DNA of 48,949 nt. It comes from Candidatus Bathyarchaeia archaeon. GTDB lineage: Archaea; Thermoproteota; Bathyarchaeia; Bathyarchaeales; Bathycorpusculaceae. The DNA lies in the NCBI GenBank assembly GCA_049970895.1, contig JBMFMB010000011.1, positions 1 to 48,949 on the forward strand, in the 5' to 3' direction. The position numbers and the translations under genes were made by a program. The notes under the pieces are model-generated. The model made no database searches and was not told the origin of the DNA. It worked only from the letters and a program-made list of their open reading frames with translations. Positions 39,702 through 44,113 of this stretch are shown piece after piece; the first letter of the stretch is position 1, and every line of letters begins with the position of its first letter.

Positions 39702-41009
39702 TCCACAATCTTCCTTCTTGCGCCTGCCCATGTTCTATTAGCAATATTCTTTCGAACGTTAAAAGTGTTTTAGTGGCAAACCACCAACAAAGACTTCAGC
39801 AGTCTTTAGTTAAACGTAATACGTATTATGCCATTGATGTTTTTGTGTGAAGATAAAGGCGAAAATGAATTAGACATAATCCTAAAGCGGCGACGTAACC
39901 CTTATATGGCTGAAAGCCGCTTCAAAATACTTTTGGCTACATTACGTTAAGCTATTGACGTGATGCAACTCCCCATCATCATGGTGGTGGAGTGAAGGGC
40001 GAGTGAGCCTAAAGCTCATAATGAAGCCATGCATAGGCCCATTGTAAACGCCAATCACAGCCAACGTTAAACAGACACCGCAAAATGCCCGACATGCCAC
40101 GCCGTCTGGGGGATGGCTCGGCTTGAGCGCCGAAGAAGGGCGCGGCCAGCCGCGATAGAGCCCCGGGTAAGCGTATGCAGCTTTAGAACCGGGGATCCCC
40201 GAATGGGACCTCCTACTGCAGGCTCCTTCGGGGGTCTGCGGTGCTCCCGGCAGGGAGCGGGAACCCCCCGAACGGAAGCATCTTAGTAGGGGGAGGAAAA
40301 GAAACCAAAACGGGATTCCCTAAGTAGCAGCGAGCGAAAGGGGAAGAGTCCAAACCAAACCCCATGGGGATAACTCATGGGGGATGTAGGGTTATGGGCT
40401 CGGCTCCTCCTCGCCGGTTAAGCCGAAGTGGCCTGGAACGGCCCGCCATAGAGGGTGAAAGCCCCGTAGGCGTAAGCCGGAAGGAGTTGTGCCGGTGTCC
40501 CAGAGTACCGTACCCTGGCTTGGGTGCGGGAAGTTGGGAGTCACCAACTTCCAAGACTAAATACGTCTCAAGACCGATAGCGCACTAGTACGGTGACGGA
40601 AAGCTGAAAAGTACCCCGGGAGGGGGGTGAAAAGCGCCTGAAACCAGACGGTTACAGACGTGTGCAGCCCGGAAGGGTAGATCCCTCCCAAAGGAAACCG
40701 CCGCGAGGCGAGAGTACGAGGGAGGGGGACCAGGGTTGCACGTTCCGTCTAGAAACACGGGCCGGGGAGTTCACGGCTGTGGCAAGCCTAAGGGTTTTAA
40801 GCCCGTAGGCGTAGGGAAACCGACATGCGCGCAGCTGGGCTTTTGTCCAGCGAGGCGCGGAGTCTGAAAGGGCTTGGAGTCACGGCCGTGAAGCTAGAAA
40901 CCGGGCGATCTAGCCCTGGGCAGGGCGAAGCCAGGCGAAAGCCTGGTGGAGGCCCGAAAGGGTGCTGACGTGCAATTCGTTCCCCAGACCTGGGGCTAGG
41001 GGCTAAAGA

Positions 41010-41044
<35 letters not shown>

Positions 41045-42145
41045 GTGGGTCGCAGCCCAGCCCCGGGCGAGGCGGCCGGTGGGGTAGAGCACTGATTGGA
41101 AGGCCAAGGGGCCGAAAGGCTCCACCTTCCTTTCAAACTCCGAATCCATCGGCGCCATAGACCCCGGGAGGCGGGTTACGGGGGGTAAGCTCCCGGACCG
41201 AGAGGGGGACAACCCAGACTGAGGTTAAGGCCCCAAAGTGCTGGCTAAACGTCAAACAGAAGGGCGTCGTCAGCCTTAGACAGCGGGGAGGTAGGCTTAG
41301 AAGCAGCCATCCTTTAAAGAGTGCGTAACAGCTCACCCGCCGAGGCTGACGGCCCCGAAAATGGACGGGACTAAGCCAGCCGCCGATACCTCAGGGCGCA
41401 GTGTAACACTGCGTCGGTAGGAGGGCGTCCCGGCTGGGTAGAAGCTGGGCCGTGAGGTCCAGTGGACCGGCCGGGAGTGCAGATCCCGGTGGTAGTAACA
41501 GCAAAGAGGGGTGAGAATCCCCTCCGCCGAAGGGGCCAGGGTTCCCCGGCAACGGTCGTCAGCCGGGGGTAAGCCGGTCCTAAGGCGTGGCTTAACCGAC
41601 CACGCCGAAAGGGAAGCCGGTTAAAATTCCGGCGCCACGGAGGTACGATTGCGGCGACGCAGGCCCAACGCCTGACGCTTCGGGGTAGGCTGAGCAAGGC
41701 TGTCGCCTTGTTTAACCGTATAAGCCTGGGGAGTGCTGTAATGGCGAGAACCAGGTGAAGGCGGGAATAGCCGCCCGTTTTAGGGCGGTTCAGCCGATCC
41801 CTGGAGCCAGTGAAAAGGGCGTTGGGAAGGATCCTCCGTGACCGTACCTAGAACCGACACAGGTGCCCCTAGGCGAGAAACCTAAGGCGTGTCGGGGGTA
41901 AGCCAGGGCGAGGGAACTCGGCAAATTAGCCCCGTACCTTCGGTAGAAGGGGTGCCTGCTGTCTTGGCCTTGTGCTGGGACAGCAGGTCGCAGTGGCAAG
42001 GGGGTCCCGACTGTTTAATAAAAACACAGGGAGCCGCAAGCCCGAAAGGGTGTGAACGGCTCCTGAATCCTGGCCAGTACAGGTACCTGAAACCCGGGTT
42101 CAACCGGGCTAAGGGCCTGCAAACGCCGGGAGTAACTCTGACTCT

Positions 42146-42908
42146 CAATGAAGGGAGTCATTAAACCCGGCTATATGCGGGGAAGGGGAAGCGGCCGGCC
42201 TCCCAAGTAGGGAAGAATGGTCGGCTGTATGCCTCTGACCCGCAGGGAACACCCGCCTTCAAATGGCTTAAAAGCAGTTGCCACCAAACTAACAGTGGTG
42301 GGACAACATGCTCAACGAGTTCAAAGACATAATAGATCCAAAAATGCTGCCAAGTAGGAGGAAGTACCTCCATTACTACATAGTGGGCCTCGTGGACGGC
42401 GAGGGATGCTTCTCCATATCAATTAAAAAACAGGACGACACAAAGTTTGGATGGGTCATCGACCCAGTGTTCCATGTGACACAAAGCAAAGAACACGGAG
42501 TGGTTCTTGAAATCCTCAAAAGGGTTTTCAACTGCGGTCGTATCATTCCAAAGCCTGGACAAGAAGAGACAACACTTCAATACGTCGTGGACGCGCGGAG
42601 AAACCTTGCAGAGAAAATAATACCATTCTTCAAGAAGCATAAGCCCATCATAAAATGGAGGGAATTCCAATACTTCGCTGAAATAGTTGAAGGGTTGGAG
42701 AAGGGCGAACACAGAAGCCTTGAAGGTTTCAAGAAACTTTTAGGAAGAGCCTATGAGGCTTCCTTTGAAAGGAAATATAAGCTCAGTGACATCCTCTCCG
42801 AACTGGAAAGGCGGGTGGACGCCTCAGAGACCATACGCCGGGCGCCGTAGAGGGATTTTGAAGATGACCTTGTAGGCGAAGATATGGTCCAACCCCTGTT
42901 TGGGGTTG
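42146..42908 (+). ncRNA. Group I intron at LSU position 1923 (E. coli numbering)
   Basis: The exon GACTCT pairs with the IGS GGAGTC via a U:G wobble. P3 CCCGGC/GCCGGG, P4 TGCGGG/CCCGCA, P7 GACCA/TGGTC with AGAGAC and AAGATA contexts, P9 hairpin and terminal G are present. Confidence 0.93.
42308..42850 (+). CDS. Single-motif LAGLIDADG homing endonuclease
   Basis: YIVGLVDGEGCF, F.VTQ, F.CG.I, IIPFF.K. Confidence 0.95.
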   Translation: MLNEFKDIIDPKMLPSRRKYLHYYIVGLVDGEGCFSISIKKQDDTKFGWVIDPVFHVTQSKEHGVVLEILKRVFNCGRIIPKPGQEETTLQYVVDARRNLAEKIIPFFKKHKPIIKWREFQYFAEIVEGLEKGEHRSLEGFKKLLGRAYEASFERKYKLSDILSELERRVDASETIRRAP

Positions 42909-43548
42909 CTCAAGGTAGCCAAATGCCTTGTCGGGTAAGTTCCGACGTGCATGAATGGATCAACGAGGGCCCCGCTGTCCCCGCCTGGCACCCGGTGAAC
43001 CCACGTAACGTGGACGAACAGTCCACGAACTCCCAGCGGGAAAAGAAGACCCCGTGGAGCTTTACTGCAGCCTGCCGCTGGAACATGGCTGCGGATGCAG
43101 AGCGTAGACGGGAGCCGTCGATCCCGGCTTCTCCGGGAGCCGGGGGAGGCGCCAATGGAACACCGTCCTTCCGCAACCGTGTTTCTCACCGGCGCCTTCG
43201 GGCGCTGGAACAACGGCAGGTGGGCAGTTTGGCTGGGGCGGCACGCCCTTGAAAAGATATCAAGGGCGCCCTAAGGTCGGCTCAGACGGGACAGAAACCC
43301 GTCGTAGAGTGCAAGGGCAAAAGCCGGCCTGACTGGATCCTCCAAAGTGAGGGATCCAGGGGCGAAAGCCGGGCCTAGCGATCATCCATGTCCCCCTTGG
43401 TGGGGGCTGGATGTGTCAGAAAAGTTACCCCGGGGATAACAGGCTCGTCGCGGGCGAGAGTCCCCATCGACCCCGCGGCTTGGTACCTCGATGTCGGCTC
43501 TTCCCATCCTGGCCCTGCATAAGGGGCCAAGGGTGAGGCTGCTCGCCT

Positions 43549-43596
<48 letters not shown>

Positions 43597-44113
43597 ACTT
43601 TATCTGCTGGGAGTGTTGGCTGCCTGAGGGGAAAGGGTCCCTAGTACGAGAGGAACGGGACGCTGTGGCCTCTAGTTTACCGGTTGTCCGACAGGGCAGA
43701 CGCCGGGCAGCCACGCCGCCGGGGATAAGGGCTGAAAGCATCTAAGCCCGAAGCCCCTCCCGAAAATAGGCAGCCAATCCCCATAAAATGGCGGGCTGGC
43801 AACAGCCCATGCCATAAGGGGACGAGGGCTCCCGTAGAAGACGGGTTTGATGGAGCCGGGGTGTACGCTGGAAGGCTTCGGCCGACCAGCTCAGCCCGCG
43901 GCCCCCAACCGCCCGAGATGTCGGGCGCATAAAGCGGTGTCTGGACGAAAATGGCTGTAGAGTAGGCGTTTAAAATGGGCCTATGCATGGCTTAAGCGTT
44001 TTTAAATGTCAATTTTGCCTTAGGCGTGTGTCAGCAAAATTGCCTAGCCCTCTAGATTTTGTCGTGGAGAAAAGGTTAAGTTTGTAGGGATTAGTTTGTA
44101 TGTGAGGATGTTT

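What the first reader, a model, noticed from the sequence alone, without database searches (positions are those of the whole stretch)
42146..42908. Group I ribozyme intron (not a BHB intron) in an archaeal 23S rRNA at L1923
Seen: removing 42146-42908 restores GTAACTCTGACTCT^CTCAAGGTAGCC. The exon ends in U paired to G of the IGS (GACTCT/GGAGTC), P3, P4, P5, P6, P7 and P9 pairings are present, and the intron ends in G. Known: most archaeal rRNA introns are BHB/EndA-spliced, group I introns have been recognised in archaea only relatively recently, and L1923 is the I-CeuI intron site. Inference: an intact, probably mobile self-splicing element in a probable Bathyarchaeia host.
Basis: partly seen in the sequence, partly recalled or inferred. 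Interest (0 to 1): 0.8.

Follow-up and report, generated by a model that had tools for sequence, protein, structure and literature searches.

The report
Group I intron in archaeal 23S rRNA
The only 23S rRNA gene of this small hot-spring archaeon is interrupted by a self-splicing-type (group I) intron that carries its own homing endonuclease gene; it is a real element, but of a kind already described in archaea in 2018.

Summary
Bases 42146-42908 are a 763-nt insertion in the archaeal 23S rRNA gene (40085-43928). A same-genus genome with 97.9% identical exons lacks exactly these bases.

It is a group I intron, not a BHB intron.
- The Rfam model RF00028 scores only 17.9 bits (cut-off 50).
- 71 homologous introns at the same site show covarying P1/IGS, P3, P6a, P7, P8 and P9 helices, an invariant U·G at the 5' splice site and a terminal G.
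- Two covariance models built only from 30 distant relatives each hit the window once, at E 3.7e-12 and 1.3e-17. Those relatives include the published archaeal IB4 LSU/1923 introns IB4.18 and IB4.28.
- No BHB motif was found at the junctions.

A 180-aa single-motif LAGLIDADG homing endonuclease gene sits in the P6a loop and runs into the ribozyme core.

Among relatives with the site assembled, 2 of 13 are occupied. The copy in the congener is only 69% identical, which fits mobility. Splicing and cleavage were not shown.

Archaeal IB4 introns at LSU/1923 were described by Nawrocki et al. 2018. This is therefore a new member of a known kind, in a host whose congener is labelled Bathyarchaeota.

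The parts
40085..43928 (+). Host gene: archaeal 23S (LSU) rRNA, the only LSU gene in the assembly
   Evidence: RF02540 2790.6 bits; single LSU match in G000
42146..42908 (+). Group I intron (763 nt) at E. coli position L1923
   Evidence: Only indel against intron-less congener G005. Empty sites in 11 of 13 relatives. Same site as published IB4.18 and IB4.28.
42139..42146 (+). P1, 5' strand. The last exon bases end in U42145, which is the 5' splice site; C42146 is the first intron base.
   Evidence: U42145·G42154 is U·G in 71 of 71. Neighbouring pairs covary with the exon sequence.
42153..42160 (+). Internal guide sequence (P1, 3' strand), GGGAGUCA
   Evidence: Pairs with the exon (alignment, no non-standard pair). 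The IGS changes with the exon in relatives: GGGGGUC, GGCGGUC, GGUCGUC, GGCCGUU.
42166..42171 (+). P3, 5' strand (CCCGGC). Its partner lies 666 nt downstream, beyond the ORF.
   Evidence: 6 pairs, each standard in 71 of 71, with CG/UA swaps. Slid control 20-41%.
42176..42181 (+). P4, 5' strand
   Evidence: Model R2 alignment. Helix 2 is 100% paired in 30 distant introns. The outer U-A pair is present in 71 of 71.
42186..42235 (+). P5-P5a-P5b arm: P5 42186-87/42234-35; P5a 42195-42200/42219-24; P5b 42201-04/42210-13, loop AAGUA
   Evidence: RNAalifold consensus of distant introns and its fit to the window. All 6 P5a pairs change on both sides and are 95% paired; P5b is 99% paired. The register of P5 is ambiguous by one base in the window.
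42239..42244 (+). P4, 3' strand
42245..42257 (+). P6 (G42245, G42246) and P6a 5' strand (42250-57)
   Evidence: P6: G-C in 71 of 71, invariant, so no covariation evidence. P6a: all 8 pairs show compensatory types and there is one compensatory change against G012.
42297..42301 (+). GGUGG, a Shine-Dalgarno-like motif ending 6 nt before the AUG (inferred)
   Evidence: Read from the sequence; not tested
42308..42850 (+). Homing endonuclease gene: 180 aa, one LAGLIDADG motif (GLVDGEG, acidic residue E32). It lies in the P6a loop, and its last 41 nt run through P6a', P6', J6/7, P7 and P3' into P8.
   Evidence: ORF; PF00961 E 1.2e-15; PDB relatives including I-CeuI 2ex5 at 1.2e-14; E32 invariant in 21 of 21; the open frame ends 3' of the P7 start in 59 of 71 homologues.
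42810..42823 (+). P6a 3' strand (42810-17) and P6 3' strand (C42822, C42823)
42824..42834 (+). J6/7 (UCAGA) and P7 5' strand (GACCAU). G42829-C42889 is the inferred guanosine-binding pair.
   Evidence: RF00028 aligns UCAGAGACCAUAC to its consensus. P7 is 98% paired, with a CG/UA swap of 42 to 29. RNAalifold found P7 on its own; 100% paired.
42837..42842 (+). P3, 3' strand (GCCGGG)
42843..42878 (+). P8 hairpin (stem 42843-46/42875-78). It contains the ORF stop codon at 42848-50.
   Evidence: All 4 pairs have compensatory changes, 95.8% paired
42879..42889 (+). J8/7 (AAGAU) and P7 3' strand (AUGGUC)
   Evidence: Near-invariant in 71 introns; matches the RF00028 consensus GAAGAUAUaGUC
42891..42907 (+). 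P9 hairpin (AACCCC / GGGGUU)
   Evidence: 82% paired against 23-46% when slid; 4 of 6 pairs have compensatory types; compensatory change against G012
42908..42908 (+). Terminal guanosine (omega-G), the 3' splice site
   Evidence: G in 73 of 73 extracted introns, and this base was not fixed by my search pattern

Best explanation
Bases 42146-42908 are an intact group I intron with no P2 helix. It is homologous to introns classed as subgroup IB4, and it sits at position L1923 of the only 23S rRNA gene of an archaeon whose congener is labelled Bathyarchaeota. It carries a single-motif LAGLIDADG homing endonuclease gene in the P6a loop.

Inferred mechanism, from the established chemistry of group I introns:
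1. The pre-rRNA folds so that the exon end GACUCU pairs with the guide GGAGUC (P1, U42145·G42154).
2. A free guanosine docks at the G42829-C42889 pair of P7 and attacks after U42145.
3. The terminal G42908 then takes the guanosine site.
4. The freed exon 3'-OH attacks after G42908. This restores ...GACUCU|CUCAAGG... and releases the intron.

The endonuclease probably acts as a homodimer, like I-CeuI. It would cut intron-less L1923 alleles, and repair would copy the intron in (homing).

Shown here: the insertion, its exact borders, the group I secondary structure by covariation, homology to published archaeal IB4 L1923 introns, an intact endonuclease ORF, and patchy, incongruent distribution.

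Inferred, not shown: catalysis, independence from host proteins, endonuclease activity and dimer state, and current mobility.
For: Borders:
- The intron-less congener G005 differs only by this 763-nt block.
- 11 of 13 relatives with the site assembled have the predicted ligated junction.

Structure:
- 79 loci were kept from 237 endonuclease relatives in genome contigs. With the window's locus and G012's that made 81 loci, and 73 of them gave an intron between the same exon motifs.
- In the 71 used, the U·G is present in 71 of 71.
- All six P3 pairs are standard in 71 of 71, with CG/UA swaps.
- P7 is 418 of 426 cells paired, P6a 331 of 364, P8 256 of 263, P9 312 of 379. Partners slid by 1-3 columns give 15-68%.
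- Formal counts on 30 distant introns: 95.7% paired against 74.4% shuffled, and 152 cells changed on both sides against 42.8, with 0 of 500 shuffles as high. For P7 and P8: 98.1% against 80.9%, 0 of 500.

IGS: it tracks the exon sequence across hosts.

Models: R1 (3' half) and R2 (5' half) were built from 30 introns whose endonucleases are at most 59% identical to the window's. Their structures came from RNAalifold, not from me. The set includes the published IB4.18 (L061) and IB4.28 (L056). Each model hits the window exactly once, at 42808-42914 (60.6 bits, E 3.7e-12) and at 42138-42255 (88 bits, E 1.3e-17, no non-standard pair).

Endonuclease: PF00961 E 1.2e-15; I-CeuI 1.2e-14; 198 relatives at E<=1e-10.

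Need for splicing: this is the only LSU gene in a 97%-complete assembly.

Mobility:
- 2 of 13 sites are occupied.
- The congener's copy is 69% identical although the exons are 98% identical.
- Copies in MAGs labelled Nitrososphaerota or Aigarchaeota are 73-74% identical.
- In the endonuclease tree the window groups with L003 and L004 (SH-aLRT 96), apart from the G012 copy.
Against: - RF00028 reaches only 17.9 bits (gathering score 50), E 0.062, and covers only the 3' part. It gives no match in the whole genome. The 2018 study likewise found nothing in archaea with that model.
- No experimental or transcript evidence of splicing. The RNA runs found do not cover the intron, and their exon-exon contigs come from other organisms.
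- P10 is at most 2 bp.
- P6 proper is 2 invariant G-C pairs, with no covariation.
- P5 has an ambiguous register, and P5a aligns poorly in my quick 71-row alignment.
- The subgroup label IB4 rests on homology to introns so classed by others. I had no GISSD subtype model.
- Relatives are kin, so the shuffle controls overstate significance; the slide controls do not share this weakness.
- MAG labels and binning can be wrong. Two identical contigs carry different phylum labels (L017, L018). Cross-phylum statements are therefore soft.
Confidence: 0.93

Rival explanations
1. [quoted passage not shown]
For: The host is an archaeon with many BHB-type tRNA introns: ARAGORN of 45 tRNAs with an intron. 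The endonuclease also resembles an archaeal rRNA-intron endonuclease, 3e54, at E 2e-24. One asymmetric near-BHB pairing can be drawn in the window: central helix 3 of 4, outer helices 3 and 4.
Against: - In a symmetric BHB test the window scores 6 of 10, and 0 of 71 homologues meet H=4, h>=2, h'>=2. The score distribution matches random position pairs, while 8 of 13 tRNA-intron controls from the same genome score 8 or more.
- The asymmetric pairing would place the cuts 2 nt out of register, so it would not restore the junction seen in intron-less relatives.
- A BHB reading does not explain the covarying IGS, the P3-P7 pseudoknot or the invariant terminal G.
Confidence: 0.02
2. It is a group I-derived element that no longer self-splices. 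Either it depends on a host or intron-encoded protein (a maturase role of the LAGLIDADG protein), or it is removed without ligation so that the 23S rRNA is left in fragments.
For: No splicing data. The ORF runs through P6a', P7 and P3' into P8, so translation and folding compete. P10 is weak and P2 is absent. LAGLIDADG proteins can act as maturases (my own knowledge, not checked here).
Against: All core helices are intact in this copy, with no non-standard pair in either model alignment. J8/7, J6/7 and the guanosine-binding pair match the family consensus. Covariation across 71 copies shows selection on the RNA fold. The insertion lies at an rRNA position that is identical in all 11 empty-site relatives, in the only LSU gene. 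ORF-core overlap and lack of P2 are described for related bacterial rRNA introns (passages of PMC1995217 and PMC3984707).
Confidence: 0.12
3. It is an assembly or binning artefact: the intron belongs to another population in the sample and was joined to this organism's conserved rRNA exons.
For: rRNA genes are conserved and often chimeric in metagenome assemblies. Related introns occur in several co-occurring lineages. Two identical contigs carry different phylum labels.
Against: An independent contig of run X1 (1036 nt, depth 62) spans 42046-42941 across both junctions with one difference. The intron depth of 62 is close to the summed 5'-exon depth of 66-70. The exons flanking the intron are 98% identical to same-genus genomes on both sides. 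The gene lies inside a 48.9-kb contig. The nearest intron, L003, sits in exons that are 97-98% identical.
Confidence: 0.03

Closest known systems
Archaeal IB4 group I introns at LSU/1923 (Nawrocki, Jones and Eddy 2018, PMC6125680; e.g. IB4.28 in NJDR01000009.1, IB4.18 in MNVH01000001.1, IB4.9 in the Aigarchaeota record BA000048.1)
   Same: Same domain, same gene, same insertion site and similar length (693-757 nt for the HEG-bearing ones, against 763). The LAGLIDADG_1 endonuclease is homologous (46-51% identity). The core is alignable, and models that include IB4.18 and IB4.28 hit the window at E 3.7e-12 and 1.3e-17.
   Different: The host lineage differs: no entry labelled Bathyarchaeota appears in their Table 1. 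Sequences are diverged. The window's copy belongs to a clade of Bathyarchaeota/Nitrososphaerota/Thermoproteota-labelled MAGs, separate from the DPANN copies. I could not see their supplementary table.
Ce.LSU.5 intron and I-CeuI of the Chlamydomonas eugametos chloroplast
   Same: Same LSU 1923 target site (passage of PMC3315327). Single-motif LAGLIDADG enzyme; sequence similarity E 1.2e-14 over residues 23-115.
   Different: Organellar host. I-CeuI is longer (207-residue chain in 2ex5). The intron RNAs were not compared here because I held no Ce.LSU.5 sequence.
[quoted passage not shown] 2007, PMC1995217)
   Same: Thermophile hosts, no P2 helix, and an ORF that starts in P6 and runs into the ribozyme core (passages). 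Bacterial members of the very family studied here sit at L1923 (L047, L051, L066, L068, L070, L077, L079).
   Different: The insertion sites in that paper are different, and its authors liken their L1917 and L1931 introns to IC1.
Archaeal BHB rRNA introns with LAGLIDADG endonucleases (e.g. the 169-aa enzyme of PDB 3e54; PMC2602781 seen only as a search listing and abstract start)
   Same: Archaeal rRNA host and a homologous single-motif endonuclease (E 2e-24).
   Different: Different splicing mechanism. Those are cut at a BHB motif by a protein enzyme. Here there is no BHB motif and a full group I fold is present.

Membership tests
Group I intron | P1 helix between the 5' exon end and an internal guide sequence, with U·G at the splice site | tested here: met
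   U42145·G42154. U·G in 71 of 71; the IGS covaries with the exon; 5 of 7 P1 pairs change on both sides.
Group I intron | Conserved core P3-P8 with the P3/P7 pseudoknot and the P4-P6 domain | tested here: met
   P3 100%, P4 100%, P7 98%, P8 97% and P6a 91% paired, against 15-63% when slid. Shuffle controls 0 of 500. P6 proper is invariant, hence uninformative.
Group I intron | Guanosine-binding G-C pair in P7, conserved J8/7 and J6/7 | tested here: met
   G42829-C42889 is G-C in 71 of 71. AAGAUAU and UCAGAGAC are near-invariant and match the RF00028 consensus. Function of the site is inferred.
Group I intron | Intron ends in G (omega-G) | tested here: met
   73 of 73
Group I intron | Score at or above the Rfam RF00028 gathering threshold | tested here: not met
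   17.9 bits against 50, E 0.062; 0 matches in the genome. The same model found no archaeal intron at E<0.01 in PMC6125680, so this is a known blind spot of the model. It is not a defining feature of the biology.
Group I intron | Guanosine-dependent self-splicing by two transesterifications | not testable with these tools
   Needs in vitro transcription and splicing. The RNA runs gave no cover of the intron.
Subgroup IB4 | Significant match to the GISSD IB4 covariance model, or homology to introns so classed | tested here: inconclusive
   No GISSD model was at hand. Homology to IB4.18 and IB4.28 is shown through models R1 and R2, which include them among 30 sequences. Lack of P2 fits IB4 but also IC2 and IA1 (passage of PMC1995217).
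LAGLIDADG homing endonuclease (PF00961) | LAGLIDADG_1 domain above the curated cut-off, with the conserved acidic residue of the motif | tested here: met
   58.7 bits against 23.1. GLVDGEG with E32 invariant in 21 of 21, aligned to the DAEG/SGEG motifs of solved enzymes.
LAGLIDADG homing endonuclease (PF00961) | Site-specific cleavage of the intron-less allele; homodimer for single-motif enzymes | not tested
   Inferred from the single motif, the 180-aa length and the likeness to I-CeuI. No fold, complex or assay was run.
Archaeal BHB intron | Two 3-nt bulges separated by a 4-bp helix, with the splice sites placed symmetrically in the bulges | tested here: not met
   Window 6 of 10; 0 of 71 strict; same as the random null. 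tRNA-intron controls score 8 or more in 8 of 13.

The most novel reading that the evidence does not exclude
The element is currently mobile across archaeal phyla in hot-spring communities. Within one genus whose member is labelled Bathyarchaeota there is an empty L1923 site (G005) and two intron lineages only 69% identical (G000 and G012) in exons that are 98% identical. The window's copy is closer to copies in MAGs labelled Nitrososphaerota or Aigarchaeota (73-74%) than to its congener's. The same intron-endonuclease family also sits at L1923 in bacterial MAGs (labelled Aquificaceae, WOR-3, Planctomycetia, Acetothermia, Shapirobacteria). If so, this would be repeated, recent homing between lineages, including across domains. 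It would also be the first documented group I intron in Bathyarchaeia: searches found no paper that describes one.
Probability: 0.45. Interest if true: 0.45.

Novelty: new member of a known kind. Interest (0 to 1): 0.3.

Why it matters
It adds a well-supported case to the short list of archaeal group I introns, in a major uncultured lineage (a genus whose member is labelled Bathyarchaeota). It also comes with a large comparative set: 71 introns at one site, spread over many archaeal and some bacterial phyla. That set gives base-pair-level support for the fold without any experiment.

The 2018 paper discusses the proposal that BHB introns replaced extinct group I introns in archaea. For that question, this genome is an example in which BHB-type tRNA introns and a group I rRNA intron coexist.

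In practice, rRNA-based annotation and 23S phylogenies of such MAGs must mask this 763-nt block, and RF00028 alone will miss it.

It does not open a new question. The kind, the site and the endonuclease family are already in print.

Tried and rejected
- RF00028 on the window at gathering threshold gave no hit. At E-value threshold it gave 17.9 bits on the 3' part only. In the whole genome it gave 0 matches. I rejected this as a test because the model is known to miss archaeal introns.

- My hand-drawn P5a register was off by one base, so those P5a rows are void. My 5-bp P5 register fitted the family poorly (23-51 of 71). The consensus register from RNAalifold replaces both. Even corrected, P5a is only 22-47 of 71 standard in the quick 71-row alignment, because this variable arm is misaligned there. 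In the 30-row alignment it is 95% paired.

I replaced it with the symmetric test. The positive controls are imperfect. 5 of 13 ARAGORN intron calls score 4-7, and several of those calls look doubtful (introns of 263, 100 and 83 nt).

- Transcript evidence: 23 runs were listed. The 6 RNA runs hold only 0.14-0.15 of the sampled words. Laying X18 (RNA) showed no cover of the intron. It showed 21 contigs joining 42145 to 42909, but these belong to other, intron-less organisms of a wetland sample and say nothing about splicing here.

- Rows dropped. Of the 81 loci held, 8 gave no intron between the two exon motifs: L032, L045, L048, L059, L060, L072, L073 and L081 (contig ends or diverged exons). 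Of the 73 that did, L052 (5' border misdetected) and L002 (duplicate of L012) were left out of the 71-row analyses.

- The exon-terminal T in 73 of 73 is partly forced by my search pattern and is not counted as evidence. The terminal G is not forced.

- I did not fold the endonuclease or test its dimer. Both would pass by likeness to solved structures and would not change the verdict.

They may list further hosts.
Full report
**What is there**

The window holds one archaeal 23S rRNA gene at 40085-43928 (RF02540, 2790.6 bits). It is the only LSU gene in the 1.34-Mb, 97%-complete assembly. The Rfam alignment carries 768 window bases where the model has five, directly after ...UAACUCUGACUCUC.

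A genome of the same genus, G005, has exons 97.9% identical over 2682 aligned positions. In 40200-43645 it differs by a single indel of 3 nt or more: exactly 42146-42908, 763 nt.

I searched G000 and 40 relatives with the 5' exon; 14 of the 41 had a match. The site itself is assembled in 13 of them, including G000. Eleven read GTAACTCTGACTCT followed at once by CT[C/T]AAGGTAGCC. Two, G000 and G012, carry an insertion. The one-base ambiguity (C at both borders) is resolved in the only way that gives a U-ending exon and a G-ending intron.

**What it is**

RF00028 is weak here. It scores 17.9 bits against a gathering score of 50, E 0.062, on 42740-42908 only. Even so, it aligns UCAGAGACCAUAC, GAAGAUAUGGUC and the last G to the consensus. 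That model also found nothing in archaea in the study that discovered archaeal group I introns (PMC6125680, main text read). I therefore used comparative analysis instead.

The intron holds a 180-aa ORF at 42308-42850. It is a LAGLIDADG_1 protein (PF00961, E 1.2e-15), with solved relatives that include I-CeuI (2ex5, 1.2e-14) and an archaeal rRNA-intron enzyme (3e54, 2e-24).

The protein has 198 relatives at E<=1e-10. A scan of species-representative genomes with an alignment of 21 of them found 237 encoding stretches, of which 79 loci were kept. Of the 81 loci then held, 73 have the gene inside an insertion of 400-1300 nt between the same two 23S exon motifs.

Two of these are published. The borders I extracted for L056 and L061 equal, base for base, the coordinates of IB4.28 (NJDR01000009.1 12303-13059) and IB4.18 (MNVH01000001.1 10442-9750). 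Both are listed at LSU/1923. This fixes the E. coli numbering and ties the window's element to introns already classed as IB4.

**The fold**

Across hosts the last six exon bases vary: GACUCU, GACCCU, GACCGU, GACGAU, GAGACU, AACGGU. The guide sequence in the intron changes with them: GGGAGUC, GGGGGUC, GGCGGUC, GGUCGUC, GGGUCU, GGCCGUU. The splice-site pair stays U·G. All 73 introns end in G.

In a 71-row alignment (L052 and the duplicate L002 dropped), counting cells that have letters on both sides:

| Helix | Window positions | Cells paired |
|---|---|---|
| P1 | 42140-45 / 42154-59 | 415 of 426 |
| P3 | 42166-71 / 42837-42, spanning the ORF | 426 of 426 |
| P4 | - | 306 of 306 |
| P6a | 42250-57 / 42810-17, also spanning the ORF | 331 of 364 |
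| P7 | 42829-34 / 42884-89 | 418 of 426 |
| P8 | - | 256 of 263 |
| P9 | - | 312 of 379 |

Sliding the 3' partner by one to three columns gives 15-68%. Compensatory pair types occur in 5 of 6 P3 pairs, 8 of 8 P6a pairs, 4 of 4 P8 pairs and 4 of 6 P9 pairs. Already against the single congener copy there are compensatory changes in P3, P5a, P6a, P8 and P9.

**Test against distant members**

For a test not shaped by my own drawing, I aligned the 5' and 3' parts of 30 distant members. Their endonucleases are at most 59% identical to the window's, and the set includes IB4.18 and IB4.28. RNAalifold chose the structures: P1, P4, P5, P5a and P5b in one model; P7 and P8 in the other.

I then searched the whole window. 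Each model has one hit:
- 42138-42255: 88 bits, E 1.3e-17, no non-standard pair.
- 42808-42914: 60.6 bits, E 3.7e-12.

These are; E-values from these short calibrations are rough. The 3' model also hits only this place in the whole genome.

On the same MAFFT alignments, pair counts were as follows:
- 5' part: 95.7% of cells paired against 74.4% in shuffles, and 36-52% when slid.
- 5' part: 152 cells changed on both sides against 42.8 in shuffles.
- P7 and P8: 98.1% paired against 80.9% in shuffles.
- 0 of 500 shuffles reached the observed values.

P6 proper (G42245, G42246 with C42822, C42823) is G-C in 71 of 71, so it is uninformative.

**BHB alternative**

I wrote a symmetric bulge-helix-bulge test: a 4-bp central helix, 3-nt bulges, outer helices, and cuts at the same place in both bulges.
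- Intron-bearing tRNAs of this genome served as controls. 8 of 13 score 8-10 out of 10.
- The window scores 6.
- None of the 71 rRNA introns meets H=4 with both outer helices of 2 bp or more.
- Their scores (4-8) match those of random position pairs.

One asymmetric near-motif can be drawn in the window. Its cuts would be two bases out of register and would not give the junction seen in empty-site relatives.

**The endonuclease gene and the core**

The ORF begins in the P6a loop, 6 nt after a GGUGG. It ends at a UAG inside P8. Its last 41 nt therefore also encode P6a', P6', J6/7, P7 5' and P3'. The same overlap holds in 59 of 71 homologues. It explains the conserved C-terminal ...ASETIRRAP.

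ORFs that start in P6 and run into the core, and the lack of P2, are described for bacterial 23S introns (passages of PMC1995217; PMC3984707). This is therefore a family trait, not a novelty.

**Host and mobility**

G012, of the same genus, is identical over 3528 of 3528 bases to a locus titled Candidatus Bathyarchaeota archaeon. The nearest intron (L003, 86% identical, exons 97-98%) bears the same label. DNA run X1 (0.97 of the sampled words), which I laid, is labelled a hot springs metagenome.

In the genus, three genomes have the site assembled. One is empty and two are occupied, and the two copies are only 69% identical although the exons are 98% identical. Copies in MAGs labelled Nitrososphaerota or Aigarchaeota are 73-74% identical to the window's.

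In a quick endonuclease tree the window groups with L003 and L004 (SH-aLRT 96). That group lies inside a starred 15-row clade of Bathyarchaeota-, Nitrososphaerota- and Thermoproteota-labelled rows, while the G012 copy lies in another subclade. Seven bacterial rows cluster together (support 92).

This fits repeated gain by homing. It rests on MAG labels, though, and one pair of identical contigs carries two phylum labels.

**What is not shown**

No tool here can show catalysis. The RNA runs found do not cover the intron. That the sole LSU gene is interrupted in an invariant rRNA segment argues that the intron must be removed (inference). It does not say how.

**Verdict**

The element is a new member of a published kind: archaeal IB4-type group I introns with LAGLIDADG genes at LSU/1923, Nawrocki et al. 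2018.

That paper's Table 1 has no Bathyarchaeota-labelled entry. My literature searches found no paper describing one:
- 'group I intron' with 'Bathyarchaeota': one paper, irrelevant by its passages.
- 'group I intron' with 'L1923': none.

The library is incomplete and supplements were closed.

Noticed in passing
G000:C4:31412-32905 (L098); window 1-40084: The 16S rRNA gene lies on another contig and has no insertion (1494 nt for a 1478-position model). No SSU gene lies in the 40 kb upstream or 5 kb downstream of the 23S in the window. The rRNA genes therefore appear unlinked.
   Followed up: partly
G000:C37:1-911 (L099): A 911-nt contig holds five SSU rRNA pieces separated by short gaps in the model alignment. 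It may be a second, diverged or foreign 16S fragment in the bin.
   Followed up: no
window 42185 to 42812 (run X5, table 5): One contig of a hot-spring DNA run (depth 185) joins 42185 to 42812, skipping 626 nt; the letters in between are not known. It may be a relative of the intron with another or no endonuclease gene, or another organism's intron. The shorter side is only 24 nt.
   Followed up: no
L017 and L018: Two short contigs filed under different phylum labels (Hadarchaeum and Thermoproteota) are identical in intron and exons. This is most simply a binning error and a warning for all cross-phylum claims.
   Followed up: partly
L004, 250 nt after the intron: The 3' exon is only 52% identical to the window's, although the 5' exon is 89% identical. 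This suggests a second insertion shortly downstream (for example near L1931) in that genome.
   Followed up: no
G024:C122 and G029:C54/C36: In two relatives the contigs break at the same 23S position (query 308-309, about window 42007). This hints at an insertion or repeat there that defeats assembly.
   Followed up: no
G000 whole genome: ARAGORN tRNAs, 14 of them with introns. Some are at non-canonical positions or very long (263, 100 and 83 nt). The host is rich in BHB-type introns.
   Followed up: partly
L047, L051, L066, L068, L070, L072, L077, L079: The same endonuclease family sits at L1923 in 23S genes with bacterial-type exons (AACGGU|CCUAAGG). The records are labelled Planctomycetia, WOR-3, Aquificaceae, Thermosynechococcus, Acetothermia and Shapirobacteria.
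   Followed up: partly
window 42281-42301: The Shine-Dalgarno-like GGUGG before the endonuclease start codon can pair with CCACC at 42281-85. This hairpin could mask the ribosome-binding site. Its conservation was not examined.
   Followed up: no
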